Source of the DNA: Eledone cirrhosa
Lineage: Eukaryota
Length of the DNA: 64,000 bases
NCBI GenBank assembly: GCA_964016885.1
Contig: OZ024740.1
Span: 117,800,001 to 117,864,000 of the forward strand
Reading direction: 5' to 3'
Part shown: positions 33,001-64,000 of the stretch, piece by piece
Layout of the letters: each line of letters begins with the position of its first letter
How positions within the stretch are numbered: position 1 is the first letter of the stretch
Notes under the pieces: generated by a model
What the model was told of the DNA's origin: nothing
The model's database searches: none
What the model saw: the letters and a program-made list of their open reading frames with translations, nothing else
Translations under genes and position numbers: made by a program

Positions 33001-33028
33001 AATAATAATAATAATAATAATAATAATG
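33001..33028. repeat. (AAT)n tract, left boundary of the array and 3' tail of Tx1 copy 1
   Basis: Read directly; preceded by (AGT)/(AGC)n at ~32954-33000. Confidence 0.95.
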
Positions 33029-33306
33029 ATTTCATTTATTAACCACAAGGGCCGACATGTAGGGGACAATACAAAGACAAGGACAGCGGGGGTTTACAAT
33101 AAGGTCGAGTAAAAGTGCACAATGGCAAGACTAATTTAACAATGAAAATATAAAAATATAAAATAAACTATGCATAAATACAACAAAATAAATTCCCCGA
33201 TAGGGGGTGGACGACCGTGGGGTGACTCGGGTACCCCACCAATCCTGAACCACCCTGCGCTTCTATGGCACCCAGGGAGAGCACCCCTCTCCTCAAGTTC
33301 TCTAGC

Positions 33307-36300
33307 CTATAGGCGCATGGTCAGAGTAGGCCCATTCACACGAGCCATTCTCGCCACATTCACCCACCTTTTAGCAAATGTACTGGGGGGCAGCACTTCT
33401 CTCTCCACCCTCACCTTCCTTTCCAGGTGAAACTTGAAGAAGTTGATGAGGGATTGGCCGAAGAGAAAAGTATCTGTCTTCAGTCCTTTTAACCTGGTCC
33501 ACCATATAACCTCTTTCGCAACTGCCACCAGGCAGAGGAAAATTTCCTGCTCTTCCTGACCTAAAGAAGGCGGTGGATCGATCTTCACTATGGACTCGGC
33601 CGATAGCCGGATTCGTTCAACACGCGACAGTAGCTGTTCGACATAACTCCACAAGTCAGTAATGCACGGACATTGGACAAGAGCGTGCAGAACGGTTTCG
33701 TCGTTCTGTGCGCATCTTGGCCAGGTCCGTCTGACAGCACTTCAGTGCCTGTAGAGTTTATCCCAAACCGGCAGTGCCCCCGGTAGCACTGCCAAGCGAG
33801 GGATTTCTGGAAATTGTCCATCGTCCCCGGCTCAAAAGTCCTCCGGTACAGACTGGTCAGTTCGACTTCGTCGCGGCCCAAAGCTTCTCCGAGTGCGTCA
33901 TCGCACTTGCCCACCACTAATCCTCTATAGAACTCGAGAGTGGAAGTTCCACTGATCGCATTGACCGCTTGGTAGAGGGCAGTGAGTGCCTGGCAACATT
34001 CCAGGTGCCAGTCACCCAGTCTCGGTCTCTTCTTGACCCAGGACTGCAGCTCAGTCAAAGAAATGAGCTGCGGAAAGGCCCGTCTGATAAACGGCGACCA
34101 CACCTGTTCACCGTTGAGGCAGAATATCTGGAGATGTCACAGCCTCAACGCATGACTGCGCATCATTAGCCACGGCATGCCCAGCCCTCCGCGTAGAGGG
34201 TACTGGCAGCAGATGGACCGCCTCACCAACGGAACTTGTCCTCTCCACAAGAATTTGAAGAGGAGCCTTTCCAACTTGACGAGGCGCGGACGGGGGCAAG
34301 GCACGACGGTCAGGCGGTAGTAGATGACGGACGTGATGTACGCTTTCGCCACCTCCGCGCGACCTTTCAGTGATAGCTTCCTCCCAGCCCATTTTTGGGT
34401 GAGACTGGCTACTCTGCTCGTTACCTCGTCCCAATTCTTTTCCACCTGGAGGTCTGGTCCGAACCAAACCCCGAGCAACTTTACCGGTCCGTCCGTCCAG
34501 CTCCCCACGAAGCTGTTGGACGGCATGGGCTTACTTCTCCAGGTTCCGAGCTGCAAGCCCACCGACTTTTCGGGGTTAAGTTTGGCTCCTGTCAACCTTT
34601 CATATTCCTTCAATAAGGTGCCGACCACCTCGCTTTCTGAGGTGTTCGAGACCATCACGGTGATGTCGTCCGCATAAGCCGGCACCGACTTTCCACGTCC
34701 CGGTTCGAGCGGGATGCCCTGCAACAGCTCCAGCTTCCGCAGTAAAGGCTCGAGAGTCAATACGTACAGAAGGGAAGAGAGAGGGCACCCTTGACGGACC
34801 GATCTGGAGAGCCGAAATGGTTCCGAGAGGTGGCCATTAACCTTGACCCCTGAGCGTGTGCCGCTGTGCATTTCAGCGATCTAGCTTCTGAAGACAGGGC
34901 CGAAGCCAGCTGCTTTGAGGACAAACTCCAGATACCAATGGTCAACCCCATCGAATGCTTTCGATTGATCTAAATTGATCAGTGCCCTACCGAAGTCAGG
35001 TTTACACCCTACCCTCTCTATGATGTATCGCATGAGGTGGAGATTGTCGTGTATGGACCTGGCTGGGATTGTGCAAGTTCTCGTGTTCTCGTCTTTCCTT
35101 ATCAGCGTCACCATTCCCCTGATCACAGAACTGGGAATACTCCCATTCTGCTGCCAGTTGCAGTAAAGTGCTTCGAGGAGTTCAGAGAACAAGTGTGGCA
35201 TATTTGCGTAAAGCTCGTAGGGAAGGCCATCCAAACCTGGTGACTTGCGCCTTATGCAGCCGACAAGGCCGTCCTGAATTTCGGCTGAAGTAATCGGCCT
35301 TTCGCAGCGCTCAGCGTCGACCGTCGAGATGCGCGGCAAGCCGTCAAGATAGGGACTGAAATCCGCTACTCTCTCTGACTCGCCACTCTCCCCGAACAAC
35401 CGAGCAAAGTGCTGGCGAAAGGCCTCACACATCCGCTTGGAATCGCTTATCTCGTGTCCGTCTCGGTCCGCCAAAGACCAAATTGTGGTTTTATTACCAC
35501 GCTGCGCCTCCGCCACGCGGGCCCATCGAACAGCTTTGGTTCCCTCGTTTCTCAGCTCACGCGCCTTAGCTCTGACAATGCAACCTTCGTGTTTCGCATT
35601 GAAGAAATGGTCTAATGCCATTCTCGCCGCTAGCACGCCAGTTGCAATGCCACTACAAATAGCTTCGTCTAACTTATCTACCAACTCCCCCTCCTTTCTA
35701 TTTTCTCTAACGCTAGTTCTTTGCTGAACTCTATCGAAGTTACTCTAATCTCTCTTTTGAGAGCCCCCCACCATCTGTTGTTGATGATCTCCCCTGTCAA
35801 CTTTTGCTTAACAAAATTGTTGACTCGGTCCCTGTAAGCCTTACGTGGCGGAAATGACATGTTCAGCTTCCAGTAACCCGGTCCTAACCTACGCGTTTTA
35901 TCTAGGTCGACCGTACAGATCACAAATTTGTGATCTGAATAGGCGACCATTTTAAAAAGTGGGCAGCCCACACTATTTCTATCTATTTTCCTAATGAAGA
36001 TCCTGTCTATATACGATCTAGATGACCCCATTCGGTTGGTCCATGTCCACATTGGCACATTGGGGAAATCTAGTCGATACCTGTCAGACAGTTGGAACTG
36101 GTTGAGTAGGTGCTTGATGCTTTTGCACACCCCGTTCCTATCGGCTACTCCCACACAATCCCAGCGTGCGTCTAAGATGCCATTCCAGTCCCCCGCTAAT
36201 AGTAAAGGGAGAGACGTACGCAGAAGGGTCTCCAGGCGCATAAAGAAGTCCGGTCGTCCGGCCCCTGTAGGGGCGTAGACGGCCAGCAGTCTAAAGGCAC

Positions 36301-36598
36301 GACCTTCGCTACTGTTCACATCCAAGACCACCAACTTACCATCCGGGTCCCGGAAGATCGACATTACCTCGAGATCCAGTCCTTTCCTAAACAGCACTGC
36401 CACCACCCCCCATTCCCGGTCTGCTAACAGATGCGAAGATCTGATAGTCGTCGAAAATGGGGGCTAGTGCGCGCGTGTCGGTCTCGCTGACGGCAATCAC
36501 ATCATTTCCAGCGACCTGAGGTCGTTGAACAGGCGACCCTGCTTCCAGGGTGACCCCAGGCAGCGAACATTTAAACTTCCTACTCTTAATATGGCCAT
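33307..36598 (-). pseudogene. Tx1 family 1 ORF2 (APE endonuclease, reverse transcriptase, C-terminal zinc finger; frameshifted, internal deletion)
   Basis: MAILRVGSLNVRCL start, VYAP, GDWN, SYIDRIF, YSDHK, GPGYWKLN, KSPGLDGLPYE, LDQSKAFD, RQGCPLSSLLY, YADD, GGLGMP. Confidence 0.92.
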
Positions 36599-36627
36599 AT
36601 TGGTAAGCTAAGAGAGAGAGGGAAGGT

Positions 36628-38609
36628 TTACTTACCTCCTGGGGTCTTGTGAAGGTCGGGTTGTTCGACCTCCATGGTTGGTGGAGTTTCTTTTGGGAAC
36701 CCCTTTAAAAGTCTTGATGTGGGTTTCACATTCGGGGTTCCCACGTCTTGAGGAAAGCTCTCTGGAATTTCTTTGAAGGAATTGAGTGACATTCGAACCA
36801 GAAGCAAATCTTCTGGCACGCAAAATGTGCTCATTTCAAAAATCCCCCCCTCTGTTTGAATGTCCTCGCTTCGTGCTAAGAGGGCCATCAGTTTATCGTT
36901 GGCCCTTCTGACAAGCACGAACATTTTTACATTTTGTTGGTGTGGTTTTATTTGTTTTCGTTTTGGTGACTGTGGTAGTGATGGTTTTGGTGGTGTTGTT
37001 TCGGGTATGTCTGTGTTTGTTGGAGGTGTGGTGTCAGCAATTTCAGGTATTTGTATGTTTGTTTGTACTAGTGTTTGTTTAGGTTGTTTGCGTTTCGGGG
37101 ATTGTGGAGGTGGTGTCGATGTTGCTGTTGGTGATGATGTTATTGGGGAAGTGTTTGCGTTAGTGGTGCCTGTATTTTTTGTTGTGTATGTTTTTGTGTT
37201 TTGTTGGGGCTTTTTTTGCGAGTTTTCTGTGTTTGTTTTGCACTTTTGGGTTTCCTTCATCTTCGCTGCTGGAAGACAAAGGGTCTGTGGCTGTGAGTGT
37301 CTCTGTGTCTGTGTGTGCGTTTATTGTTTTGTCTATGTGTATAATTGGGGGGTAGGGGGAGTGGGAGGGCTTTCCTCATTTTCCTCTTGGATTGGTTTTG
37401 GTGTTGGTGGGGATCCGGCTGTTTTTGATGTTGGTGTTCGTGTTTTTGTTGGTGTTGTTTTTGGTGGTGGTGGTGGTGCAGCTTTCCGTGCTGACACTGG
37501 CGTTGGCAACAAAGGAGGTTTGTGACCCCCTGCATTTTTGCGCTGAGGGCAGAAGGCTTGCAGATGCATTGCTTCCCGCAGACGAAGCAGCGTGGCCTTC
37601 TTCTGTCAATGATTAGTTGGATTATTGTCCCGTCCTGCAGGCGGGCAAAATCCGGGATGTTGTTCATGTCCTCCGGTTTCATTTGGAGAAGAATCTCCAA
37701 ATCCATTCCGGACCAGTCCTCTCTCTCTGTCCTTTTGATATCCAGGAGGGTAGTGTCTGTCCCCTCCTCGATTACGCATCCCAGCAGCCACCATATGTTC
37801 ATTCCTGGTGGGATGCTGGGAATGCGTACCTTTACTGTCCTTTTACCCATGTAGGACGGATGCATGTTAATGAGTTCCGTTCTGCCGGGGGCCACCGAGT
37901 GCTTAATAGCGAGGGCCTCAATTTTGAACAGTACCGATAATGCCGAACTGTTTGCCTCTTGCTTCGTACTCTATGTTACTTCCGATGTACTCCAAAGCAG
38001 CCTCGACCTCTGCTTGGCTAGCAAGTTCCACTTTTCGTGTCTGGACCGAAATGCATCGAAAGAACACCGTCCTCCTTTGCATGGCCGCTATTGCCTCGTC
38101 CGGGATGGTCAGGTTTGCCCAGGACTTCTCCCGTTTAATTAGCCTCCACGCTTGTGCCAACTGTTCTTCTTTATCGCTAATATCAATATCAATATTCAAT
38201 AAGCGCTTTGTTTTGCTGTTGCTGCAGCAAATGTGGTGCTTCTGATGCTCTTGTTGTTGGTGTTGTCATTCTTGTTGTTGTTATTGGTGTTGTTGTTGTT
38301 GTTTTGTTTGTTGATGCTGTTGCCACAACCATCCGTGTTTACATTGAAGCTGTCGGTGTTATTGTCGTTATTGCTCTGAGTTGTTGTTGTGGTGGTGGTG
38401 GTGGTGGCGGTGGTAATGATGTCGTTTGCAGATGATACTGCTGCTATCACAGAAGGTTGTGATGGTAGCTTTTTAGTTTTGCCTTCACATCCAGTAGAGT
38501 GGATGACAGGCATGACTGTAGCCGTTGTAGTCGTGGTGAAATCTACAGTGGCTGCCTTTAAACTTTTGACATGAACGTTGTTTACCGTTTCAAGGTCGAA
38601 CATTTCCAT
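36628..38609 (-). pseudogene. Tx1 family 1 ORF1 (frameshifted; T/N-rich N-terminus, zinc knuckle, P/T-rich C-terminus)
   Basis: ORF pieces 38196-38609, 37918-38199, 37257-37895, 37333-37569 and 36628-37260; RRPRCFVCGKQ / HLQAFCP is a split CX2CX4HX4C. Confidence 0.8.
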
Positions 38610-38831
38610 AATTTTTTTTGGTGGGGAAGCGATTTTTTTCGAAGTTTTTAAAAAATAAATCTGAATATTGGGGCTTAAAGCCCGAATATTGAGAGGTATC
38701 CCTCTCTTTAAATCAAGATCTATACCTTAAGTTTCGTTAACGACAAGAAAATTAAAAAAATGACACGTTAAAACAGTTTAAAGTTACGAACCTTTCCCAC
38801 GCAGATTTGTAGTCTTCACACATGTGCGGCC

Positions 38832-38870
<39 letters not shown>

Positions 38871-38884
38871 CAATTAATAACAAT
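38832..38884. repeat. (AAT)n spacer between Tx1 copies 1 and 2
   Basis: Read directly. Confidence 0.95.
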
Positions 38885-39131
38885 GCTTTCTTTATTAACC
38901 ACAAGGGTTTACATAAAGTAGACATTAAGGACAGTACAGGACAATACAGGACGGTACAAATGGGCATTTCTGCGTGTAAAAAAAACAGAGGATGTAATAA
39001 AAAAATAACAATGAAAAATTCCCCAATAGGAGGGAGACTTCCGAGGGACATTTGTGGAGAAAGCCCATTAAAAGGCCACAGTGACCCTGACCACCAGGGC
39101 AAGTGCTCTCTCCCAGTTTTCCACGTTTAAT

Positions 39132-42100
39132 TTACAGACACATAATCAGGGCCATACTTGCTTCTCTCACACATCTTTCAACAAAATGCTGGGAAGAGAG
39201 CACTTCTCTCTCTACTCTTATTTTCCTTTTCAAATGAAATTTGAAAAAGTTAATTAGGGCATCACCGAAGAGGTAAGTGCTCGTCTTCAGCCCTTTCAAA
39301 CGTGTCCACCATACTATCTCTTTCGCCATGGCCACCAGACAGATAAAAACTGACTACCCTTACCGGCTAAAGGAAGAGGACGGGGCAATCCTCACGATAG
39401 ACTCAGCTGATAGCTGGATCCGTCCGATACGTGACAGCAGGTGTTCGACATAAACCCACAAGTCAGCAATGCTCGGACACTCGACGAGTGCGTGCAGGAC
39501 TGTTTCGTCGCCCTGCGCGCATCTCGGACATGCCCGGCTGACGGCACCTCCATGCCTGTAGAGTTTATCCCGAACTGGCAAAGCTCCTAGGTAGCATTGC
39601 CAGGCCAGGGATTTCTGGAAGTTGTCCTTAGGCCTCGGCCCGAAAGTCCTTCCGAAGAGATTGGCTAGTTTATTTTCGTCAACGCCTAGAGTTTCTCCAA
39701 GTACGTCGTCGCTCTTCCCATCCACTAATCCTCTATAGAACGCCAAGGTGGAGTTTCCACCGATCACATTGCCCGATTGGTCGAGAGCTGTGAGCGCCTG
39801 AAGACATTCCAGTCTCCAAGCGCTCCCTCTCGGCCCTCGATTGACCCAGGACTGCAGCTCCGTCAAGGAGACGAGCTGGGGAAATACGTGTCTAGCAAAC
39901 GGCGACCACACCTGATCACCGTCGAGGAAGAGGTGGAGATATCGTAGCCTGAGCGCGTGTCTGCGCATCATCAGCCACGGCATGCCCAGCCCTCCACGTA
40001 GCGGGTGTTGACAGCAGATGAAACGCTCCAGCGCAGTCAGGCGGGGCTTAGGACAAGGTACGACGGTCAGGCGGTAATAGATGACGGACACGATGTACGC
40101 GTTAGCCACCTCCGCTCGACCTTTCAGGGATAGCTTCCTCTCCGCCCATTTCTGGGTGAGAGAAGCCACCAGGCTCGTTACCTCGTCTCAGTTTTTGTCC
40201 GTCTGGAGGTTCGGACCGAACCAGACCTCTAGCAATTCAATCGGTCCGTCCGTCCAGCGTCCGACGATGCTGTTGGACGGCATGGACCTGCCTCTCCAAG
40301 TGCTGAGCTGCAGGCCCACTAACATTTCCTTATTGATCATTGCTCCTGTCACCGCTTCGTATTCTCTTAGTGTAGTGCCGATCGCCTCGATGTGTTTGGC
40401 GTTCGACACCACTACGGTGACATCGGCCGCATATGCTGACACGGATCTTCCGCCTCCTAGTTCGCGCGGGACGCCCCTCAACGTCTCCAGTTTGTGCAGT
40501 AATGGCTCGAGAGTACAAGAGGGACGAGAGGTGACATCCTTGGCGGACCGAGCGCATGATGTTGAACGGTTCCGAAAGGTGACCGTTCACTCTCACCACA
40601 GAGCAGAAGTCGTTGTGCATGGCAGCGATCCAGCCTCTGAAGACGGGCCGAAAGCCAGCCGCCCTCAGGACTGCCGCTAGGTAACGATGGTCGACCCTAT
40701 CGAAAGCTTTCGACTGATCTAAATTGATCAAGGACCCACCCGTGCCAGGTTCTCTAGCTACCACCTCTACGATGTATCGCACGAGGTGGAGATTGTCGTG
40801 GATGGATCTGTCGAGAATGGCGCATGTCTGCGCCTCTCCCACCAGACCACAAGCGAGAAACTCTTTGCTAGCACCGTGGCCAAAATCTTGAACTCTGTGT
40901 TTAGCAGAGTTATGGGCCTGAAATTATCTATGTTATCCCCCTTGTTCGGATCCTTTTCTCAGCAGTGCCACCACTCCTCGGCTCACAGAGCTGGGAATTC
41001 TCCCGTTCTGTTGCCAGTTACAGTAGACGTCCGTCAACAGGCTTTAGAACAAATCTGGCATCTGTACATAAATTCATAGGGCAGACCATCCAAACCAGGC
41101 GATTTACCACTTGTGCAGCCAGTCATTGCTTCCCGTACTTCAGCGGCTGTTATCGGCTTTTCGCAACACTCCGCCTCCGTGGCTGAGAGCCGCGGCAATC
41201 CATCGAGGTAGACACTAAAGTTCATCCCTCGATCCGGCCCGCCGCTGCCCCCGAACAGCTGGGCGATGTGTCGCTGGAAAGCTTCACACATTTGCCCGGG
41301 ATCGAGTAGCATGCGCCCGTCGTGGTCCACCAAAGATCGGATCGTGGCTTTGTTGCCACGACGCGCCTCCGCCACTCGGGCCCATTGAACGGCTTTCGTC
41401 CCCTCGTGTCTGAGAGCACGCACCGTAGCTCTGACAACACAGCCTTCGTGCTTTGCATTGAAGAATTGGTCAAGGGCCAATTTCGCCGCAAGTACGTCGG
41501 TCGCGATGCCTTTGCTAAGCGCCTCGTCTAATTGTCTAACTAATTCTCCCTCTGCTCTATTTTTCTCTATTGCTAAAGACTTACTAAACCTAATCGATTC
41601 TATTCTAATTGCTCTTTTCAGAGCAAACCACCACTTGTTGTTGACGATGGCCTCCGTCAACGCCCGCTTAACTAGTTCGCTAATCCGGTCTCTGTAGGCC
41701 TTGCGCGCTGGTAAGGACGCGTTTAGCTTCCAGTAGCCGGATCCTCGTCAATTAAGCCTATCTAAGTCAAGCACACAGATCACGAATTTGTGGTCCGTGT
41801 ACCTGACTATCTTGAATTGTGGACAGCCTATGTTAGACCTATCTATTTCCCTACAAAATACTCTATCTAGATATGATCTGGATGACCCTATGCATTTTGT
41901 CCAAGTCCACATTGGCACATTCTGGAAATCCAATCAGTACCTGTCAGACAGTTTAAAACGCTTGAGCAGGTTGGCGAGACTCTTGCACCCTCCTCCCCTA
42001 TCCGCTAATCTCACACAGTCCCAGCGTGCATCTAAGATCCCGTTCCAGTCGCCCACTAACACTAAAGAGCGGGACGTTCCAAGAAAGGTCTCCAGACGCC

Positions 42101-42469
42101 GGAAGAAATCAGGCCGCCCTGCTCCTGTCGGGGCATAGACGGCCACTAGCCTGAAAGCTTGCCCATCTCCGCTGGTCACGTCCAGCACCACCAACTTACC
42201 CTCTGGATCCAGGAAGATGGCCCGTATGGCGAGATCCAAACCTCTCCGAAAAAGCACAGCAACTCCTCCCCCGATCCAGGACGGTTGGGAGATGCGTACA
42301 CATCGTAGCCGCCGAACATCGGTGCGAAGGCCCGTGCTTCGGAGATTCTGGTCTCGCTGATGGCCACTACAACTATGTTTAGTGACCTGAGGTCGTTGAG
42401 CAGGTGACCCTGCTTCCATGACGACCCCAAGCCACGCGCATTTATGCTGCCTATTCTGAGTGAGGTCAT
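39132..42469 (-). pseudogene. Tx1 family 2 ORF2 (APE-RT-CCHC; frameshifted)
   Basis: MTSLRIGSINARGL, ISET, VYAP, GDWN, SYLDRVF, YTDHK, KSPGLDGLPYEF, LDQSKAFDRV, RQGC, YAAD, CPRC..DETVLHALVECP. Confidence 0.92.
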
Positions 42470-42546
42470 GTTAAAATGGAGTGGAAAAGATGGGTAAGAC
42501 CACTTACCTTACTTCTCGTAGAGGAAGGACGGTTTCTCCACCCTTT

Positions 42547-44469
42547 TCACGGTTTGGTGGCCTCCCCCGGAAGGATGTTCTTATAAATCCTCCTGGAGAG
42601 TGCTTGTCGGAAGTCTCCGATGTCTTTGGGGAATTTTTGTTTTAGTGTCATGTACGTTTTCTGTGTGATGCGAGTGATTTGTATGTGTGGAGGTGGTGTG
42701 AACTTTTGGGTTGTTGTGTAGTCTTTTTCTGTGATGCTGGTGTTGTGTTGGATGTAATGTAATAATTGTTTGTTGTTCAAATTTAATGCTGTGTAGTGTG
42801 TATCGTTTAGGTTGTTTTGTTTTGTTTGTGTTTGTTGTGGGTTTGTTTCTGTTTCGAGACTTTTGTGGTGTAGGTGATGGTGGTGTTGGGGTTAATGATG
42901 GTGATGGTGTTGGTGTTTGGGGTGATGGGGTTGGTGATGCTGGTGTGGATGGTTGCATATCTGTCCTAACTTTTTTGTTTGATAGTTTATTTGTTTCTCT
43001 CTGCATTTTGTTTTTGGAGGGGGGAAGGAAGAGTATTTTTTCTTTTTTGGTTTCTTTTTTGGTTTCTTTTTTTCTTTTTTCCAGATACCGTTTCCCACTC
43101 CTCGCCGTCACTATCTGTCTCCAGTTGTGATAGGCCGGGGAGTGAAAATCCTCCACAGGCGTTAGTTTTGGTTGTGGCGTGGTGGATGGTGTAGGCGCTG
43201 GTGCTAGTTCTGGCGCGTTGGGTGGTGGTGGTGTTGGCTTTGCTACTGTTGCTTGGGTTGTTGCTGTTACAGTTGCTTCTGTTGTTGCTGCTACAGTTGT
43301 TGCTGCCATCTCTGCTGCTGGTGGTGTTGATGGTTGAGTCACTGGGGTGGGTAGGAGAGGTGGCCTCAACCTTTTAGCCTGAGGGCAGAAAGCCCGTAGG
43401 TGGGTTCCTTCACCACAAACGACACACCTAGGCCTTCTGCCCTCGACAATTACGCTGAGGTGACTGCCGTCAGTGAGGTCTATTACCTCTGGGATCTCCT
43501 CAATGATTTTTTCGTCCGCTTGGATCAGGAGCTCCATCCCAGATCCGGACCAGTTCTCCTACTTTTCTTTCGCTATTTCGATTATCTTGGTGTTGGCTTC
43601 GATGCCGGCGAGGACGGTAGCTATTAGCCAGGGAATTTCGATGGCCGGTGGAACGTGGGTGACCCTGATCTTTACGAGTCTCTGGCAACAATAGCTTGGG
43701 ACGAGTGTGAAGTCGTCACTTCTTAATGGGGCCATGGAGTGTTCTCTAGCCTCCTGTGGTGTTTCAAAGAACACGTCCACGGTTCCATACTTCTGCCCAC
43801 GTCTGATGTGGGATTTTTTTGCCCACACATGTCCCAAAGCTTTTTGGATTTGTGACTCGGATGCCCGTTCAACTCGGCGCGATTTTATATTAATTGTTCG
43901 ATAAGACAAGGTGCATAGGCGCCGATGCTCCATTTTATTAGGGGGGTGGGGTGGGGGGTGGGTGAGGCTGACCCTGTACCCATCTTTCTTTACCATTTTT
44001 TTGGCTTCTTCTAATTCCTCCTGAGTTACCTGAAATGCTTCGCACTGTTTTGCTACTCTGGCAAAACTCAGGGTGGTTTTCTTAATGTCATTGTTGCTGT
44101 TGTTGTTATCGTTATTTTTGTTTTTATTAATTTTAGTTTCAGTTGTGGTGGTGGTGGCGTCAGTTGTGTTCGGTGTGGAAAAGTTCATTTTGGTTGAATT
44201 CATTTCGATATCACGAGTTAATTAATTTTTTCTTTTGTTTCTGTTGTCGCGGTGGTGGTGGGGATGGGGGTTGTCGCGGTGGTGGTGGTGGTGGCGGCTT
44301 TAACACCTGCAGTCATTGGTAATGGCGGGAAATGAATGTCTGCCTGAGACAAATTTAAAATATTGCTACTGCTTATATTTTTAGTGTTGGCAAACGTAGT
44401 AATATTTCCAATGGTGGTGTCGGTGTGAGTTGTTAGTTTGTGAGAAAGGAGTGACTCTGAGTCAGCCAT
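42547..44469 (-). pseudogene. Tx1 family 2 ORF1 (frameshifted)
   Basis: Pieces 44218-44469, 43559-44203, 42581-43537 and 42547-42780; intact knuckle RRPRCVVCGEGTHLRAFCP. Confidence 0.82.
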
Positions 44470-44683
44470 GATTTTTCAAAGAAAAATTTTTGTTTGATAA
44501 TTATAAAAGTTTAAATTTTGGGCTGAAGGCCCCAATCGTTTTGGGTGTCCTTTTCATATAACAATGTATGTGCACTTATATACAGTTAACAATACAAATT
44601 TTCCATGAATGGCAATTTTAAACAACTGAAAATAACAAACCTTTGCGGAGCTCACGATGATACGATTTACTACGTAGGTCGCC

Positions 44684-52834: not shown

Positions 52835-52846
52835 AATAACAATAAC

Positions 52847-52903
<57 letters not shown>

Positions 52904-52915
<12 letters not shown>

Positions 52916-54175: not shown

Positions 54176-54185
54176 TAATAACAAC

Positions 54186-54235
<50 letters not shown>

Positions 54236-54236
<1 letters not shown>

Positions 54237-55339
54237 CAAAAAGAAATGGATAGGAAGACTAGGAAGCTATTGACTATCTACAACATGTTCCACAAGAGGA
54301 GTGATGTCGATAGACTCTACCTAAGGAGATCTGAGGGTGGAAGAGGTCTTATCAGCATAGAGGACTGTGTTCAGATGGAGAAAAACAACCTATACAAATA
54401 CGTGACCTATAGTAAGGAGCCAATGCTCAGAACTGTACTGAAGGAGGGGACAGTAGGCCAGGGGATGTCCAAGGAGGAAATAACATCAAGGAGGAAGAGC
54501 AGCCTTAAGGGAAAATCCCTTCATAGTACCTTCTTTGAGAAAACTGAATTTAGAGATCCACAGACATGGAACTGGTTGAGAAGAGGAGACCTCAAAAAGG
54601 CTACAGAAGGAATGCTAATGGCTGCGCAGGAGCAGGCCCTCAAAACGAAGTGGTTGAAGCACCATATCTACAAGGAGGAGGCTAGCCCACTGTGCAGGAT
54701 CTGTGGAGAGAGAGAGGAACCTGTGGCTCACATCGTGTCCGAGTGTAAACACCTAGCCCAGACCCACTATAAGGGCTGGAGACACGATGTGATGGGCAGG
54801 GTGATCCACTGGCACCTGTGCAAAGTAAACAATTTACCACATTCTGAGAAATGGTATGAGCATAGGCCAGAGGCGGTGATGGAGAACAGTCAGGTGAAGG
54901 TGCTGTGGGATTTTAGGATACAGACGAACAAGAAACTGGAACACAATAGACCTGACCTGGTGGTTGTGGACAAAGAAAAAAGATCGTGCCTGATTGTGGA
55001 TGTGGCCTGCCCGTTCGACACGAGAGTGCAAGAGAAGGAGAGGGAGAAAATTAACCGATACCAGGACCTAAAGTGGGAGGTGAAAAGGATTTAGAACTGC
55101 CATGAAGTCAAAGTGATCCCGATTGTCATAGGCGCACTGGGGACTATCTCCAAAGGTTTCCAGGGATGGTTGAAGAAAATCGGCCCCTTCACGCTTTTTG
55201 GAACGCTTCAAAAGGCATGCTTGCTTGGAACAGCAAGAACCCTCCGATACGTCCTGAATATCTGAGGCTGCAGGTAGTGGCTTGATATTCAATCCAACGG
55301 ACTTTCCAGTTAACCAACATCAATGACTGAGATTCAAGG
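54236..55339 (+). mobile_element. 5'-truncated Dong family A copy T3
   Basis: Same 5' breakpoint as T1; ORF 54246-55094; (TAA)n tail 55340-55399. Confidence 0.93.
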
Positions 55340-55351
55340 AATAACAATAAC

Positions 55352-55399
<48 letters not shown>

Positions 55400-55411
<12 letters not shown>

Positions 55412-56671
55412 AAATGAAGGAATTGTTAAGAACTGAATACATTCGGAGAGTAAGGAGCGTATTGAAGTCACATCTGAACAGCAGAAATGCCATAAGCGCA
55501 GTAAATTCCCGAGCCGTGTCTATTATTAGGTACAGTGCGGGAATACTGAGATGGAATGTTGCTGAACAAAAAGAAATGGATAGGAAGACTAGGAAGCTAT
55601 TGACTATCTACAACATGTTCCACAAGAGGACTGATGTCAATAGACTCTACCTAAGGAGATCTGAGGGTGGAAGAGGTCTTATCAGCATAGAGGACTGTGT
55701 TCAGATGGAGAAAAACAACCTATACAAATACGTGACCTATAGTAAGGAGCCAATGCTCAGAACTGTACTGAAGGAGGGAACAGGAGGCCAGGGGATGTCC
55801 AAGGAGGAAATAACATCAAGGAGGAAGAGCAGCCTTAAGGGAAAATCCCTTCATAGTACCTTCTTTGAGAAAACTGAATTTAGAGATCCACAGACATGGA
55901 ACTTGTTGAGAAGAGGAGACCTCAAAAAGGCTACAGAAGGAATGCTAATGGCTGCGCAGGAGCAGGCCCTCAAAACGAAGTGGTTGAAGCACCATATTTA
56001 CAAGGAGGAGGCTAGCCCACTGTGCAGGATCTGTGGAGAGAGAGAGAGGAGACTGTGGCTCACATTGTGTCCGAGTGTAAACACCTAGCCCAGACCCACT
56101 ATAAGGGCTGGAGACACGATGTGATGGGCAGGGTGATCCACTGGCACCTGTGCAAAGTAAACAATTTACCACACTCTGAGAAATGGTATGATCATAGGCC
56201 AGAGGCGGTGATGGAGAACAATCAGGTGAAGGTGCTGTGGGATTTTAGGATACAGACGGACAAGAAACTGGAACACAATAGACCTGACCTGGTGGTTGTG
56301 GACAAAGAAAAAAGATCGTGCCTGATTGTGGATGTGGCCTGCCCATTCGACACGAGAGTGCAAGAGAAGGAGAGGGAGAAAATTAACCGATACCAGGACT
56401 TAAAGTGAGAGGTAAAAAGGATTTGGAACTGCCATGAAGTCAAAGTGATCCCGATTGTCATAGGCGCACTGGGGACTATCTCCAAAAGTTTCCAGGGATG
56501 GTTAAAGAAAATCGGCCCCGTCACGCTTTTTGGAACGCTTCAAAAGGCATGCTTGCTTGGAACAGCAAGAACCCTCCGATACGTCCTGAATATCTGAGGC
56601 TGCAGGTAGTGGCTTGATATTCATTCCAACGGACTTTCCAATTAAGCAACATCAATGACTGAGATTCAAGG
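55400..56671 (+). mobile_element. 5'-truncated Dong family A copy T4
   Basis: Same 5' breakpoint as T2; (TAA)n tail 56672-56707. Confidence 0.93.
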
Positions 56672-56707
56672 AATAACAACAATAATAATAATAATAATAA
56701 TAATAAT

Positions 56708-57640
56708 GATTTTTAACATATTTAAATCAATTGTGAAATAACAATTCTTAGTACAAATATTGCATAAACCACCGAATCAAGTCCCATAAAATTTCGGATC
56801 CATATTATATTGTTATATCGCTCAAATATTCAATTTTGTATTATATATTTTGTATTCAAAAAGAAATTGGTTATAAATGGAAGAAAACACCCTCTGTCTA
56901 CACTATATAGAACAGCCAAATAACAGCAATTTTACCAACACCATAAACTTGATACACCACCTACCCCATCACACTAAATATAACAGCAAGATAACGGCAA
57001 TTTCACCACCACCACCACCAATCCCAGCATCATGATAATAATTACTATTATTATTGTCTCAAGTTTTAACAAAATGTTTAATTTCAATTTTACGGGAATA
57101 TATATTAAACATACGCGATCATTTTACACAATATATATTAAACATACGCGACACAAACTCATAGATACTACATATCACAAAACTCAGTAACGACAACGCC
57201 ACCGCCACCACCACTCCATCCATCATTGCTACCACTATCCCATCACCGCCGCCACCACTCCTTCATTGCTACCACCACTATTCCCCTGTTAACTTGAGAG
57301 AGAAAGGGGAAGGTGGCGGTATCACTAGACAAGGGAGAGGCTAGCAAAAGATATAAATAGATTGACTTAGTGATCTGGCCACCGGCCAAACGTCAATATC
57401 AACAACTATGGCACTGTTGGCTCACCCCTTCCTCACCAACAATATAAAAAGCCCCATCACCACCACCGACATAGCCAACAACAATAACAGGCAACTTCAG
57501 CAAAAAGTATATTATATTATTGTAATGCACTGGGTGATTGCTGGCCTTGTGCCTGGAGTGGAGACAATTATTAATAATTTCATTCTTAAGCCACGCAATG
57601 CTCACATTAAGGAACCACTCATGATAATAACAATTTAAAA
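56708..57640 (+). repeat. Unclassified unit X2 (paralogue of X1) including a SINE 3' fragment at ~57525-57572
   Basis: TTTTAACATATTTAAATCA...GAAATAACAATTCTTAGTACAAAT etc. shared with X1; GCACTGGGTGATTGCTGGCCTTGTGCCT matches the SINE end at 10369. Confidence 0.75.
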
Positions 57641-57649
57641 AACAACAAC

Positions 57650-60600
57650 AAAAAGAAATCCCCGTGACCAAGAAATACCGGGATGGCGACCGGCGGGGAA
57701 TAGCCATGTCTCTAGGGGAGAACGACTCCTCTAGTCTTGGTTGACACTCGTTCTAGAAGTGGTAACACGAAATGTTTACCCCTTGGCGGATAAAGATAAA
57801 ACGCGAAAAAATAAAGTAAATGTCTAATGATAAAATCTCATACCGAATCGGCCGTCACCCGGGTAAAAAAAAAGGCCGCGTCCCTCAAAGAGGAACCAGA
57901 CTGTGGTCGAAAAATCAGCTAATGGTTCAAACCTTCCCATCACTTCGGAGCTGGAGACCTCCCATAACCGGAATACTCCTACTGTTGGCCCTCCATGCTC
58001 ACCACCAAGAAATCCAAAGAAAAAGACAGAAAAATGGTCAAGGGAAGATAATAAAGAAGTCCTTGAGGCTTTCTACACTGCCATGTACTACCCATCGAAT
58101 ACATCGAATACAGAACAGACATATATCAACTGGAAAAAGAAACATCCCGAAAACAGAGGCTATATTGACAGTAACAAACTAGCCAATATACGAAGAAATA
58201 TTGTAAGAAAAAAGTTACTAACTGATATAGAAATTGATCAGATCAAGCTATTAGCACAAAGTCAGCGAAGGGAAAATGAAACATGTGTCAGTGAAAACGA
58301 GGTAAATTGTAACACTTCGAATCCCAGGGTTGGGGCGGAATCACTGGCAACAGAACAAATTAAAGAAAGGATCGAAAAAGTGGAGGGAGTGCATGCTCAG
58401 GAAGAAACTCCAAATGAAAATAATGAGATCGTAAATGATAAAGAAATGAATGAGAATGAACTTGCCAACTTGAAGGATGAAATTATGATCGAATGGATGA
58501 AAATAAAAGAATCTGACATGGGGAAACGAGACACCCTCCCTAAGATCCAGAACTCCAAACAGAACCAAAAGATAATACACAAGACTAACATAATTCTCAA
58601 AAACATTATCATCACAAACAAACTAAACATTACTGATTTAAATCATCTATATTATGCATCGGCTAAAGTCACCACTCACCTATGTGGAGTGAAGATGAAA
58701 AAACAAAGGAATTCCCATAAGAAATCTACTTGGCAAGAGCTCATCAATCGCCAAATAAACCTTCTCCGATTTGACATAGAAATTTTAACAAACTATAAGG
58801 TATGTTAAACAAACTAAACTTAGAAAATTGAAAAAAAAGTACAGTATAAAATCAACAAGTGACATAGACATGCTGATAGAAATAATGAAGCAAAAAGTGT
58901 CGGCCAAAGCTGCTCGTATAAGGCGCTTTGAAAAACGATCTAGATTCTATAAGGACAATAATATGTTCAAAAACAACCAAAGAAACTTCTACAGAAAAAT
59001 TGGTAAGTCAACAATAACTGATAAATCAATACCACCCAAGGAGGAAGTGCAAGAATTCCGGGAAAAGATCTGGGCCGAAGAAAAAGTTCATAACATACAT
59101 GCCCCATGGATAGACAGACAAATGAAAGATACAGCTCACCTTGAGGAACAAATATGGGAAAATATAACATTTGAACAGTTGCGCTTGGCTCTAAGAAAAA
59201 CCAGCAAATGGAAATCCCCAGGAAAAGACAAAATACAAAACTTTTGGATAAATGCCTTCACAGAGCCGCATGAGCTGTTAGCCCAACTTTACAATGAAAT
59301 AGTTAAGGAGCCAGAAAAGATACCATCATGGCTAGTTAACGGCATTACATTCCTGCTTCCGAAGAATGATGAGACAAACAATCCCAAAAATTACAGACCG
59401 ATAACTTGCTTGACCACAATGTATAACATTTTAACATCAGTCCTAACTGAATACACATATGACCACCAGATAACAAATGACCTATTTCCCATTGAGCAGA
59501 AAGGGTGTAAACGAGGCTCATATGGCTGTAAGGATCAGCTTCTGGTTAACAAAATGATACTGGAAGATTGTCATAATAGACACAAAAATCTATCGATTGC
59601 TTGGATAGATTATAAAAAAGCATTTGATAGTTTGCCACACAGTTGGATTGAAAAATGTTTAGAGATTTTCAAAGTATCCCCCGTTGTCAGGAGGTTTTTG
59701 TCATTCAGTATGAAGACATGGAAAACGACACTCCTTTTGAATAGTGAAACAAAATCACTGGAAGCTGGAGAAGTTAATATTAATTGTGGAATTTTTCAGG
59801 GTGACTCTTTATCACCGCTTTTATTCTGCATCGTACTTATACCATTAAGTAAAATGCTCAATGAAACAAAACATGGATATAAAGTCTATGACAAAACCAT
59901 TAATCACCTGTTCTACATGGATGACCTGAAACTATTTGCAAAAAATGATGAACAATTGCAAGGGCTATTATCCACTGTGAAGCAGTTCAGTGATGACATT
60001 AAAATGGAGTTTGGACTAGATAAATGCGCCAAAGCAACGTTCACCAGAGGAAAGCTGCTGAAGAGTTCAGACATTAATCTTGATCGGGGGAACGGGATAA
60101 GAGAACTTGATCAAGAAAAAACTTACAAATATCTAGGTGTTTGTGAAGGAGACGGAATCAAGCACTCGACAATGAGGCAAAGGATAAGGAAGGAATGTTA
60201 CCGCAGAGTAAGAGCAATCTTAAGAACGGAATTGAATGCAAGGAATAGGATCGATGCCATAAACACGCTTGCCATAGCAGTAGTAACCTACAGTTACAAT
60301 GTCATCAACTGGTCAAGCACAGAGATCCGTAGGCTCGATACAAAAATTCGAAAATTCTTAACCATGCACAGAATGCGTCACCCTAAGGCAGATATAGATA
60401 GAATATATCTCCCTAGGAAAGAAGGAGGACGTGGGTTAATCCAGTTAGACATTGCGTTGAAAACTGCAACAATTGGATTATCTACATATCTAAGGGAATT
60501 ACATGATTGGATGATCAAACTCGTTTTGAAACACGAAAGCATCAAAAGATCATATTCCATTACAAAAGATGCACAAAGATACAGTAATGGACTACAAATT

Positions 60601-61607
60601 TCAGAAGTCCCATTTACTGCTGAAATGGAAAACACAGAAAAAGCAAAGCAGGTAAAAGTAACTGCAAAGAAAGAACTGCTACAGAAACTGGCTAAGAAAT
60701 AGCAAGAAAAGCCTCTGTATGGAAAATACCCAGAGCGAGCTAACAATCCTGATGTTGACAAAACTTTAACCCATCAGTGGTTGGCATCCTCTGGACTGAA
60801 ATCGGAGACTGATGGACTGATTATATCGGCACAAGATCAGTGTCTGCCAACAAAAAATTACCAAGCCAACATAATAAAAAATGGGTGCAGCCCATTATGC
60901 CGTGTATGCAAAAAACAACCAGAGACCATTGACCATATAATTTCAATGTGCAGTCCTATAGCTCCAACCGAATACCTAAACAGGCATGACAGAGCTGCAC
61001 AATACATACATTGGATAATGTGTAAGCATTTTGACCTGCCCCATCAAAAGAATTGGTGGGAGCATCAACCACCTCCCATACTTGAAAAAGATCACATCTC
61101 AATCTTGTGGAACTTTAGCATCCAAACAGACCGAAAAATAGATGCAAACAGACCTGATATAATATTGAAAGACTTTCAAAAGAGGGTATGCCTGCTGATT
61201 GATATGTCTGTTCCAATAGACAAGAATGTATCTATAAAAACATTTGAAAAATTGAGCAAGTATAAGGACCGGGAGATAGAAATTGGAGAAATGTGGAAAT
61301 TGAGAACTAAAACAAAACCAGTGGTTGTAGGCGCTCTGGGAATGATACCTAAGGGGTCTAATGATTACATATCGCAAATCCCAGGAAACCCGCGTATAGG
61401 AGAAATACAAAATATAGTACTAATGGGAACTGCCCATATACTAAGGAAGATTCTGTCAATATAAGTACATCACAAGTCTAAACACTAAAGATGCATGTGT
61501 GAATATGTATGTTCTTTCTTGAACATGGCGGATCTTGTTGTCTCTTGAGGTCACTGGTTGTGACTTGGTGATAACTCGTATGAACATAAAGCAAGATAAA
61601 TGCAACT

Positions 61608-61608
<1 letters not shown>
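57650..61608 (+). mobile_element. Full-length R4/Dong-clade retrotransposon, family B (few lesions)
   Basis: ORF pieces 57820/57903-58808, 58828-60702 and 60781-61464 carry [55 protein letters not shown]...ETIDHIISMC, RHD and RPDIILKD...LIDMSVP; (TAA)n tail 61609-61657. Confidence 0.93.
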
Positions 61609-61657
<49 letters not shown>

Positions 61658-61668
61658 CCTCGATTCTA

Positions 61669-64000
61669 ATTCGCCAATCCTCGATAAGAGTGTTTAAATA
61701 TCGAACATAAACAGTTCGAATAACGGTGAAATGGAGACTAGAACGTCATGTGACAGACTCTCACCCAACAGGTGCCCCCTGGCTCAGCAGCAGGAACCTG
61801 ACTGTCAACCAAATACTGCTGATGTTGGAGGAAGAAGAAGAAGGAAAGGGGCCAGAACCAATTGGACGAAAGAATTGAATAGAACTGTTATGCAATGCTA
61901 CCTGAAAAGTAACCCCAAGGAGAGGGGCTACAGGAGACGGATGCATAACATCTGGAACGAGATTGGTTTATTTAAATTAGATGAACAAAAATTGGCCGGT
62001 CAGGCTCGGGTAATAAGAACTAATGGGTGGATAAGCGAGCTGGAACTGGAGGAACTGAGCAGAGAGAATGGCTTGGAGATGGCGGGTGTAGTATGCCAGA
62101 CAAGCGAGCCAGTGGGAAATGAAGGTGAAGAGGTCCTGAGAACGGAGGAACCACCCGAAGCAGACAATGATCTGAATACTGAGATAAATAATACCTGGAA
62201 CAGAGATACGGCCACTGAGAAGATGAATGCTGACGGGCTAGGACAAGATTCGGTTGACATCCTAAATTTAGTGGTAGATGAATTGAACAATGATAGTGGG
62301 AGACCTATGAACCTAAGATTTGTAGACAGGAAAAAGTTAAAAGAAACAACAGCTAAGGTAAACAAAGTCATCCCATACCTTGAGGCGAGGAGCCTTCACC
62401 AGTGCAACAATATCCTCAAAGCAACAGCAAATACGGTGAGGAAACTACTTGGTATAAAAGCGAGAGGAAACAACAGACAAGAAAGAGCAGAGCCGTGGTG
62501 GAAGAAGCTACTGAGTGGGCAAATCGGGGAAATGAGGAATGACATAGGAAAGCTTGAGTCACTACTGAATGGGACACTAAAAAACATAGGCACTAAAAAT
62601 AGACTGGAAATAAAATACATAACTAGGAGTAAAAAGCTAAATATTATCATAGAGGAATTGAAGCAACGCATTGTAGCAAAGAGTGCAAAAATCAGGCGAT
62701 ACGAGAACAGAGTCAGTCAGTATAAACAGAACCGCATGTTCGACAACAACCAGAAGATGCTGTTTGGACAGCTTGAGGGGAAAGAAAGAGGCAACGACTT
62801 GATCCCTGGGGCGGAACAAACTAAAACATTCTGGAGAGGAATATGGGAGCAGGATGTTAGACACAATGCCCAGGCAGGGTGGATTGATACAGTACAGAGG
62901 GAGATCGGTGAGCAGGCACAACAACAAACTGATTTGAGTATCACAGTTGAAACTCTTAAGGGGCAAGCCAAAAAACTAACCAACTGGAAATCACCAGGCC
63001 CAGATGGTGTGCAGGGGTATTGGATTAAACATTTAACATCCCTCCACCCGAAGCTGACGGCCATGTTCAATGACTGCTTGGTGTCGGGTGAGGTGACAGA
63101 GTGGTTGACAAAAGGTACCACAGTTCTGATAATGAAAGACCGAATCAAGGGTAATGATGTTACCAACTATAGACCTATCACATGTCTGTCCGTAATGTGG
63201 AAACTGTTGACGAGCATTGTGTCTGAGGAAATCTACCACCACCTCCACACAAACAACTTGTTACCGGACGAACAGAAATGATGCCGAAAGAAGTCACGTG
63301 GTACAAAGGACCAGTTACTTATTGATAAGATGGTAATGGGGAATTGCAGGAGGAGACACACTGATCTTGCCATGGGATGGATAGACTACAGAAAGGCATT
63401 TGACATGGTGCCTCATTCCTGGATCACCAAAAACCTGGAGATCTTCAGGGTGGCAGATAACATCAGACAGTTGCTGGGCAGGAGTATGGGGTCCTGGGAG
63501 ACAAAGTTGACATCAACTGGAGTATCCTTGGGAAGCGTGAAGATCAAGAGAGGTATCTTCCAGGGAGATAGCCTGTCCCCTCTGTTGTTTGTCCTTGCCC
63601 TGATGCCCTTGACCATTATGCTGCGAAAAGTGAGAGCAGGATACAAGTTGGGAAGGGGAGAGCTTACCATCAATCACCTCCTCTTCATGGACGATCTTAA
63701 GCTCTTCGGGAAAAGTGAGGAGTTGGATGTGCTTGTTGACACTGTCAGTATTTTCAGCAGTGATATATGTATGCAGTTTGGTATTGGTAAATGTGGAGTC
63801 ATTGTAATGAAGAGGGCCAGGTTGAGCAGAAGTAACGGGATCCAGATACCAACAGGTGAGATGATAAAGGAAATTGACTCTGAGGAAGGATACAAGTATT
63901 TGGGCGTTCTGGAGGCTGATGGCATAAAGAACAAAAAAATGAAGGAATTGTTAAGAACTGAATACATTCGGAGAGTAAGGAGCGTATTGAAGTCACATCT
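61669..64000 (+). mobile_element. Dong family A copy A2, 5'-complete, running off the window end
   Basis: Same 5' start ATTCGCCAATCCTCGATAAGAG as 48146; ORF 61731-63281 ends at a GGA>TGA nonsense change, and RT motifs continue beyond it. Confidence 0.93.

What the first reader, a model, noticed from the sequence alone, without database searches (positions are those of the whole stretch)
33001..64000. Bidirectional retrotransposon array: APE-type Tx1 and RLE-type Dong elements share one (AAT)n microsatellite target from opposite strands
Seen: 10 non-LTR copies from 4 families packed over ~31 kb, with junctions at 33001, 38832, 44684, 46615, 51657, 52835, 54176, 55340, 56672 and 61609. Each is an (AAT)n tract in the same + strand orientation. 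All Tx1 copies are minus-strand with (ATT)n tails and occupy the left side. All Dong copies are plus-strand with (TAA)n tails and occupy the right side, so the array diverges from ~46.6-48.1 kb. Known: Dong (R4 clade) targets TAA repeats, some fish Tx1 elements (Kibi/Koshi) target other microsatellites, and TRAS/SART insert in opposite orientations into insect TTAGG repeats. Inference: two unrelated endonuclease classes converged on the same trinucleotide repeat but prime on opposite strands. Each insertion regenerates target via its tail, making a self-extending landing pad.
Basis: partly seen in the sequence, partly recalled or inferred. Interest (0 to 1): 0.88.

Follow-up and report, generated by a model that had tools for sequence, protein, structure and literature searches.

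The report
Two retrotransposon classes share AAT repeats
Twelve jumping-gene copies of two unrelated kinds are stacked in one short AAT repeat, each kind facing its own way here and across the genome, likely because their different DNA-cutting enzymes start copying from opposite strands, and two of the copies likely come from a later duplication rather than from new jumps.

Summary
Real. All ten (AAT)n junctions, ten copies and four families are in the sequence; the array runs past the window to 39 kb and 12 copies. The target rule holds genome-wide: 1642 of 1771 exact Tx1B 5' ends are followed by (AAT)3 in register, and 5'-truncated copies also sit on the repeat (Tx1 20 of 29, Dong 41 of 47, none on the opposite strand). 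Tx1 sense is the ATT strand, Dong sense the AAT strand. Corrections: the divergence point is one tract (46615-46673), and 46.7-48.1 kb is Dong1 5' UTR. Two Dong copies likely come from a 2.5-kb tandem duplication. The left/right split is not a rule: tail-to-tail junctions are common, and young copies lie inside the array. Added here: Dong1 and Dong2 (42% protein identity) share a 0.63-kb 5' head, likely by exchange. Dong on TAA, microsatellite-seeking Tx1 and opposite-facing TRAS/SART are published; an AAT-specific Tx1-like family sharing the repeat with Dong was not found in print. This scan noted the same pattern at eight or more other places in this genome. Nicking and priming are inferred, not assayed.

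The parts
33001..33027 (+). (AAT)9 tract, left end of the array; preceded by an (AGC)n/(AGT)n run of host DNA
33028..38831 (-). Tx1A: full-length Tx1-like LINE (ORF1; ORF2 APE-RT-zinc finger), with stops and frameshifts
   Evidence: both ends defined by 29 other genomic copies each
38832..38884 (+). (AAT)n tract between Tx1A 5' end and Tx1B tail
38885..44683 (-). Tx1B: full-length second Tx1-like family (73-76% aa to Tx1A in the EN and RT pieces compared), broken; most diverged copy of the array (4.6-4.8% from nearest fetched copy)
   Evidence: 5' end census
44684..44722 (+). (AAT)13 tract
44723..46614 (-). 5'-truncated Tx1B-type copy (RT C-half, zinc finger, 3' UTR); youngest Tx1 here (2.0%), at the centre of the array
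46615..46673 (+). (AAT)n tract: the single head-to-head junction where the array diverges
46674..51656 (+). Dong1 copy a: near full-length R4/Dong-like LINE; about 1.45-kb 5' UTR (with a 137-bp internal tandem repeat at 47425-47701), single RT-CCHC-RLE frame, broken
46727..47359 (+). 5' head shared with Dong2 (56709-57332): 78% with gaps, 513 of 585 aligned bases identical
51657..51728 (+). (AAT)n tract, tail of copy a
51727..52834 (+). Dong1 copy b, 5'-truncated (1.1 kb), young (0.9%)
52835..52905 (+). (AAT)n tract
52904..54175 (+). Dong1 copy c: chimera, 5' part like copy e, 3' part like copy a; switch between 53761 and 53850; likely crossover product
   Evidence: 35 of 37 informative sites e-type before, 15 of 17 a-type after
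54176..54235 (+). (AAT)n tract, duplicate of the 51657 tract
54234..55339 (+). Dong1 copy d: likely duplicate of copy b (same 5' junction, which occurs only twice in the genome, both here)
55340..55401 (+). (AAT)n tract, duplicate of the 52835 tract
55400..56671 (+). Dong1 copy e, 5'-truncated (1.3 kb)
56672..56707 (+). (AAT)n tract
56708..61608 (+). Dong2: near full-length second R4/Dong-like family (42% aa RT, 38% aa C-terminus to Dong1); lacks the first ~55 nt of the head; broken
61609..61657 (+). (AAT)16 tract, tail of Dong2
61658..64000 (+). Dong1 copy f, lacks the 5' UTR; continues to window-coordinate 65206, followed outside the window by copies g (65237-67083) and h (67117-72237) and a last tract ending at 72252

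Best explanation
Tx1-like (APE) and Dong-like (RLE) retrotransposons both sit on (AAT)n tracts in fixed, opposite orientations across this genome, likely because each endonuclease nicks a different strand of the repeat and primes reverse transcription on its own tail, and this array likely grew by repeated insertion into the tracts left between earlier copies plus one unequal crossover. Shown: the flanks, the orientation rule, the spread of copy ages and the chimeric copy. Inferred from target-primed reverse transcription: Tx1 RNA ends in (AUU)n and would be primed by a nick on the AAT strand; Dong RNA ends in (UAA)n and would be primed on the ATT strand. Each insertion splits one tract into two usable tracts, so occupied sites gain targets; any tract is re-used, not only tails, so left/right order is history, not rule. 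About ten insertions over a span of 0.8-4.8% divergence and one 2.5-kb duplication (between copies a and e) give the 12 copies.
For: Census: 1642 of 1771 exact Tx1B 5'-end 19-mers are followed by (AAT)3 in register. Samples of other loci with a tract of 12 bp or more at the 5' flank: Tx1A 28 of 29, Dong1 27 of 29, Dong2 26 of 29; Tx1B 30 of 30 with 3 or more units. 5'-truncated copies, whose flank cannot be element-encoded: Tx1 20 of 29, Dong 41 of 47, none on the opposite strand. Orientation over 340 tracts in 283 loci: Dong on the AAT strand 269 vs 17, Tx1 on the ATT strand 170 vs 2. Domain classes: APE motifs and PF03372 in Tx1; RT, CCHC and PD..D..K matching R2 proteins in Dong. Re-use: 20 of 30 Tx1B 5' tracts have a second element beyond; in 600 kb of evenly spaced samples 10 of 16 tracts, and all 5 of 12 or more units, touch these elements. 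Ages differ. Duplication. Control: an RTE-like LINE fragment at 4650-6900 has no AAT flank. Precedent that the endonuclease sets target and orientation: PMC7265360 (passages).
Against: No cleavage assay; the nick position cannot be read from a pure repeat. 19 of 458 element sides break the orientation rule; 8 are ATT runs inside the Dong1 UTR and the rest lie in mixed (AAT)n(ATT)n tracts, but three tracts (L105, L157, L194) look like true reversed junctions. 9 of 29 truncated Tx1 copies lack three ATT units. More distant Tx1-like relatives (68-80% identity) in the sample are mostly not at AAT, so specificity is limited to some families. All three Tx1 on one side has probability 0.017 under random order, a post hoc figure for one locus but not trivial. 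Flank samples are the best-scoring 30 hits (or the first 30 on C1), not random. Whether added repeat units come from tails, target duplication or slippage is unresolved.
Confidence: 0.85

Rival explanations
1. No sequence-specific nicking by Tx1: a relaxed endonuclease cuts AT-rich DNA and insertion succeeds only where the nicked end pairs with the (AUU)n tail, so specificity and orientation come from primer-tail pairing.
For: Tail and target always match in strand. Some copies sit at 2-3 units or at the edge of other repeats.
Against: Two Tx1A copies (L004/L193, L127) have a single ATT unit at the 3' junction, so long pairing was not needed, and L004 still has a long ATT tract on its 5' side. 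In TRAS/SART the endonuclease sets specificity (PMC7265360, passages).
Confidence: 0.2
2. The A-B-A-B block at 51.7-56.7 kb is an assembly artefact, two haplotypes joined in tandem through Dong homology, so the true array has ten copies.
For: A haplotype join would give the same chimeric copy. No laid record spans the stretch.
Against: The two units differ at about 21 of 2210 sites (read), against about 5 variant sites in about 2300 unique flank bases in contigs of one sample (Fisher p 0.001); contigs drop variants, so this is weak. It would not affect the target rule.
Confidence: 0.2
3. The four short Dong1 copies are four independent insertions that truncated at microhomology hotspots.
For: Identical truncation points do recur in unlinked copies (positions 4875, 4067, 4745, 3898). 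Copies b and d differ at 13 of 1112 sites, more than either differs from its nearest unlinked copy (0.8-0.9%).
Against: The b/d junction occurs exactly twice in 3.0 Gb, both here; c and e also share a 5' breakpoint; c switches from e-type to a-type at one point; five of the b/d differences fall in one 100-base bin.
Confidence: 0.05
4. The arrays are built mainly by DNA recombination between AAT tracts or tails of elements first inserted elsewhere.
For: One crossover product is present; some element ends abut other elements with no tract.
Against: Solitary copies in unique DNA have the repeat at the 5' flank too, and truncated copies with many different breakpoints end on it.
Confidence: 0.05

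Closest known systems
Dong (R4 clade): Bombyx Dong, DongAg, DongBg of Biomphalaria, ostracod Dong1/2; Dong-R4 families of Octopus vulgaris
   Same: Single RT-RLE frame and (TAA)n target. [quoted passage not shown]
   Different: Bombyx Dong has a self-cleaving HDV-like ribozyme at its 5' end (PMC3774820, passages); none was found in these heads. Here two families of 42% protein identity share one long 5' head.
Kibi (TC)n, Koshi (TTC)n and the crocodilian Tx1-1_Crp group (TTCC)n/(TTTC)n, Tx1 clade
   Same: APE-type elements inserted specifically in microsatellites (PMC4494074, passages). The families here pass that paper's criterion (target in more than 20% of flanks) by a wide margin.
   Different: Target is (ATT)n on the sense strand, shared with an RLE element. 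The window's copies form their own 24-row clade with unnamed proteins, only weakly sister (SH-aLRT 85) to the fish group that holds TX1-named proteins.
TRAS and SART (R1 clade) in insect (TTAGG)n
   Same: Two families use one repeat in opposite orientations, set by the endonuclease (PMC7265360, passages).
   Different: TRAS and SART are related APE elements at telomeres; here one APE and one RLE class share an interstitial microsatellite at many sites.
5' UTR / promoter replacement in mammalian L1 (recalled; PMC5872511 seen only in a search listing)
   Same: Families whose 5' region and coding body have different histories.
   Different: Here the same head is on two deeply diverged RLE families of one genome, and Tx1B/Tx1C share ORF2 (92% nt) under ORF1s of 35-50% aa identity.

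Membership tests
R4/Dong clade | Single frame with RT followed by CCHC finger and PD-(D/E)xK restriction-like endonuclease; no APE | tested here: met
   RVT_1 and no PF03372; RPDL..VDV..EK motif aligns with an R2 protein, best PDB hits are R2; motifs in both families
R4/Dong clade | (TAA)n target with sense on the AAT strand | tested here: met
R4/Dong clade | RT phylogeny with named R4/Dong references | not tested
   None of the 120 listed homologues carried a Dong or R4 name; no reference sequence was on hand. The name Dong rests on architecture and target.
R4/Dong clade | N-terminal diverged SANT/Myb-like domain (PMC7998251) | tested here: inconclusive
   No Pfam Myb hit at E up to 5; the paper needed profile-profile search
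R4/Dong clade | HDV-like ribozyme at the 5' end, as in Bombyx Dong and Ascaris R4 (a feature of studied members, not the clade definition) | tested here: not met
   No Rfam match, no hit with a relaxed descriptor written from recall on the first 450 nt of 5 heads, head folding no better than shuffles
Tx1 clade (L1 group) | ORF1 with zinc knuckle; ORF2 APE-RT-cysteine-rich end; no RNase H | tested here: met
   CX2CX4HX4C in Tx1B ORF1 and the APE motifs (labels recalled) in translation; PF03372, PF00078, PF13966 and no RNase H family; best PDB hit of the EN is an L1 endonuclease variant, E 0.0013
Tx1 clade (L1 group) | RT phylogeny places it in Tx1 rather than L1 | tested here: inconclusive
   Quick tree only; sister to the fish group with TX1-named proteins at SH-aLRT 85; no L1 reference in the tree
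Tx1 clade (L1 group) | Target specificity (target in more than 20% of flanks; criterion of PMC4494074) | tested here: met
   1642 of 1771; 28 of 29
TRAS/SART-type telomeric pair | Opposite orientations in one repeat | tested here: met
TRAS/SART-type telomeric pair | Telomeric repeat target and position; both partners APE-type R1 clade | tested here: not met
   Interstitial position, loci on many contigs; one partner is RLE-type

The most novel reading that the evidence does not exclude
These mixed (AAT)n arrays are not only shared landing pads of an APE and an RLE class but exchange hubs: stacking co-oriented relatives lets read-through transcripts or crossovers move 5' heads (promoters) between deeply diverged families, which is how Dong1 and Dong2 came to share one head and Tx1B/Tx1C one ORF2 under different ORF1s; the elements also make most long AAT, and some AAG, microsatellites of this genome.
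Probability: 0.3. Interest if true: 0.68.

Novelty: new variant of a known kind. Interest (0 to 1): 0.46.

Why it matters
It gives a natural pair of unrelated endonucleases that appear to read the same three-base repeat from opposite strands, with more than a thousand junctions to define the rule; how microsatellite targeting works is described as poorly understood (PMC3812793, passages), and the pair makes it testable by nicking assays and domain swaps. Tx1-like and Dong-like sequence covered 3.5% and 2.0% of a 600-kb sample, so the habit shapes a visible share of the genome and explains why long AAT repeats here are element junctions, which matters for assembly, microsatellite markers and insertion calling. 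Each ingredient has a precedent and this scan has reported the pattern repeatedly in this genome, so this window adds mainly the duplication and the shared head.

Tried and rejected
Misassembly test: Logan contigs of three runs of one sample gave only short pieces over 46000-58500 and nothing that spans it; no verdict. Empty allele at the left end: not readable, contigs are cut at the repeat. Target-site duplications: both ends fetched for 12 Tx1A and 8 Dong1 loci; 3' ends found for 10 and 7, of which two Dong ends belong to a neighbouring Dong2; no duplication beyond the repeat could be read. HDV-like ribozyme at the Dong head: not found; an HDV-like arrangement of helices at the Dong1 frame start lacks the expected G-G and catalytic C (by eye, motifs recalled) and overlaps coding sequence, so it is not claimed. 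'Headless' Dong1 subfamily (5 loci starting at the same point before the frame): rejected, since headed copies nest among them and only 3 exact junctions exist; microhomology with the repeat explains them. Dong2 copies with another head: none; 11 of 29 loci reach the shared head, the other 18 are truncated or joined to other elements, so the direction of the exchange is unknown. Polarity rule (Tx1 always left of Dong): rejected. A first coordinate-based census returned nothing because locus files lack coordinates and was redone by sequence. Subtelomeric position: rejected; centromeric position not testable.
Full report
1. Observation. Between them lie three minus-strand copies with APE, RT and zf-RVT matches and seven plus-strand copies that match an RT-RLE protein. 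The window is at 117.80-117.86 Mb of a 442.9-Mb contig in a 3.0-Gb genome, so it is interstitial. The label 'octopus-type genome' comes from earlier scan notes and fits the microsatellite-rich, AT-rich DNA; I did not test it. Neighbouring DNA shows that the array ends at window-coordinate 72252 and holds 12 copies and 13 tracts. The stretch 46674-48145 is not a spacer but the 5' UTR of Dong1: it recurs before Dong1 at 67.1-68.6 kb and runs into the Dong1 frame in 24 of 29 other loci within the 1.7 kb held. The array therefore diverges at one tract.

2. What the elements are. Tx1A and Tx1B have an ORF1 (zinc knuckle intact in Tx1B) and an ORF2 with the APE motifs, RT and a cysteine-rich end; their EN and RT pieces are 73-76% identical in protein. 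Their nearest database relatives are unnamed (38-51% identity); TX1-named proteins are at 31-35%. A quick tree puts them in a well-supported 24-row clade, weakly sister to a fish group that includes a TX1-named protein; it had no L1 reference, so 'Tx1-like' is the safe name. Dong1 and Dong2 have one frame with RT, CCHC and a PD..D..K motif that aligns with R2 proteins and are 42% (RT) and 38% (C-terminus) identical to each other. No named Dong was among the 120 homologues listed. Every copy in the array is truncated or carries stops or frameshifts.

3. Target rule. Tails do not prove a target, so I read 5' flanks. Of 1771 exact matches to a 19-base Tx1B 5' end, 1642 are followed at once by (AAT)3. 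In the best-scoring other loci (own-window loci dropped), a tract of 12 bp or more flanks the 5' end in 28 of 29 Tx1A, 27 of 29 Dong1 and 26 of 29 Dong2 copies; of the five Dong misses, four have AAT beyond an AAG run or a repeated head piece. The first 30 Tx1B ends on C1 all have 3 or more units, median 16. 5'-truncated copies, which break at many different points, have three units on the sense strand within about 30 bases in 20 of 29 Tx1 and 41 of 47 Dong cases, never on the other strand. Over 340 distinct tracts in 283 loci, Dong reads on the AAT strand at 269 sides against 17 and Tx1 on the ATT strand at 170 against 2; eight exceptions are ATT runs inside the Dong1 UTR, the others lie in mixed (AAT)n(ATT)n tracts, and three tracts look like true reversals. 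An RTE-like fragment at 4650-6900 (family assigned by eye) has no such flank, and more distant Tx1-like relatives in the sample are mostly not at AAT.

4. Mechanism. By target-primed reverse transcription (established knowledge) the nicked strand is the one complementary to the RNA, so Tx1 would prime on the AAT strand and Dong on the ATT strand. This is inference. Two Tx1A 3' junctions carry one ATT unit and then another repeat (L004/L193, L127), which suggests a nick just after AAT and little need for a long tail; two cases only. Conversely L028 and L150 have a tail but no 5' tract, so tails can create a tract. Re-use is common: 20 of 30 Tx1B 5' tracts, 18 of 29 Tx1A 5' tracts and 18 of 28 Dong1 tails (SINE-piece hits not counted) have another of these elements beyond. 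In 60 evenly spaced 10-kb samples, 10 of 16 tracts touched these elements, including all five of 12 or more units; the six others had 5-6 units. Distances to the nearest fetched copy run from 4.6-4.8% (Tx1B) through about 3-4% (Tx1A, a, g, h), 2.0% (truncated Tx1B), 1.5-1.9% (Dong2, e) to 0.8-1.0% (b, d, f) (upper bounds, sample-dependent). The array was therefore built over time and from the inside: young copies lie between old ones.

5. The divergent layout is not a rule. Head-to-head junctions numbered 48 and tail-to-tail 21 in a set where 5' ends were sampled about twice as often. Per end: a Dong neighbour at 14 of 29 Tx1A 5' ends and 8 of 29 3' ends; a Tx1 neighbour at 6 of 29 Dong1 5' ends and 4 of 28 3' ends. 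The small array 0.6-7.7 kb upstream of the window start is tail-to-tail. For three Tx1 and seven independent Dong insertions, full segregation has probability 0.017, noticed after the fact at one of very many arrays.

6. Two copies come from a duplication. The short Dong1 copies form an A-B-A-B block with a period near 2.5 kb. The 5' junction of b and d occurs exactly twice in the genome, both here. Copy c matches e at 35 of 37 informative sites up to 53761 and a at 15 of 17 from 53850. That is the pattern of an unequal crossover between a and e in an ancestral a-b-e array. Against it: identical truncation points recur in unlinked copies, and b and d differ at 13 of 1112 sites. A tandem join of two haplotypes would look the same; contigs could not test it, but the units differ more (about 21 of 2210) than the unique flank varies within one sample (about 5 of 2300), which weakly favours a real duplication.

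7. Shared heads. Dong1 and Dong2 frames give only short blastn patches, yet their first 0.63 kb match at 78% with gaps, 513 of 585 aligned bases, and family majorities agree at 200 of 227 columns over the first part (22 and 23 heads). Heads stay linked to their own bodies. Non-coding identity far above coding identity points to an exchange of the 5' region; direction unknown. A third Tx1 family upstream of the window shares ORF2 with Tx1B at 92% nt while the ORF1s are 35-50% identical in protein. Bombyx Dong has an active 5' HDV-like ribozyme (PMC3774820, passages); none was found here, so the head may be a promoter; untested.

8. What is known. TAA targeting by Dong, including in mollusks: PMC3812793 and PMC7998251 (passages). 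Microsatellite-specific Tx1 families: PMC4494074 (passages). Target-specific groups in general: PMC4640811 (passages). Opposite orientations in one repeat: PMC7265360 (passages). Octopus Dong-R4 and L1-Tx1 families are counted without targets in PMC13282606, and a Dong element is mentioned in PMC9115989 (passages). Kojima and Fujiwara 2004 and Xiong and Eickbush 1993 were seen only as cited references. Searches that found no (ATT)n-specific Tx1 or APE/RLE shared microsatellite; the library lacks most subscription papers and Repbase Reports, and I read no supplements (those of PMC4494074 list Tx1 targets and may bear on novelty). The scan has noted the same pattern at eight listed places in this genome and part of this stretch in another window; these are unchecked notes, not support.

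9. Verdict. Observation confirmed with corrections; interpretation partly supported. A real, genome-wide, well-quantified new variant of known behaviour. Interest 0.46: the AAT-specific Tx1-like families and their opposite-strand sharing with Dong appear undescribed and testable, but each ingredient has a precedent and this array is one of many.

Noticed in passing
window 46727-47359 and 56709-57332; L071-L099, L131-L159, L303-L331: Dong1 and Dong2 share a 0.63-kb non-coding 5' head despite 42% protein identity; likely a head exchange between families.
   Followed up: yes
L067 (window-coordinates -7668 to -598): A second small array: a full-length third Tx1 family (ORF2 92% to Tx1B, different 5' region) tail-to-tail with two short Dong1 3' fragments; the outer fragment's 5' flank is a long (AAG)n run, not AAT.
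   Followed up: partly
L071, L076, L080, L096, L141, L142; L204, L208; array end at window-coordinate 72252: (AAG)n runs often lie between the AAT tract and the Dong head (6 of 45 heads), whose first bases contain two GAA units, and after some tails; they may be born by slippage at these junctions, or AAG may be a second target.
   Followed up: partly
window 57520-57570: A piece of the abundant SINE-like repeat that ends in ATT units is fixed inside the Dong2 5' UTR; the same repeat often supplies the tract next to Tx1 and Dong ends (L003, L104, L259, L264).
   Followed up: partly
window 57650-57880: Structured stretch before the Dong2 frame (folding z -2.1, 4 of 200 shuffles as good); no Rfam match.
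   Followed up: partly
window 48140-48215 and 61669-61735; L031-L060: Helices in an HDV-like order around a TCCTCG motif overlap the Dong1 frame start; key residues are missing. Two old copies (L059, L060) seem to begin about 60 bases upstream of it, so an older short 5' end may have been replaced by the long head.
   Followed up: partly
window 4650-6900 (+): Degenerate RTE-like LINE fragment (family by eye), with no AAT flank; used as a control.
   Followed up: partly
window 32180-32640: Purine-rich 9/18-bp minisatellite 0.4 kb left of the array; also a compound (AGT)/(AGC) run directly before the first AAT tract.
   Followed up: no
window 47425-47701: 137-bp tandem repeat in the Dong1 5' UTR whose copy number varies among family members.
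   Followed up: no
L019 and L020; L045 and L046: Pairs of loci on C4 with near-identical flanks, suggesting segmental duplications or duplicated haplotypes in the assembly.
   Followed up: no
L105, L157, L194: Mixed (AAT)n(ATT)n tracts where an element lies in reversed orientation; rare exceptions that could show how strand choice works.
   Followed up: no
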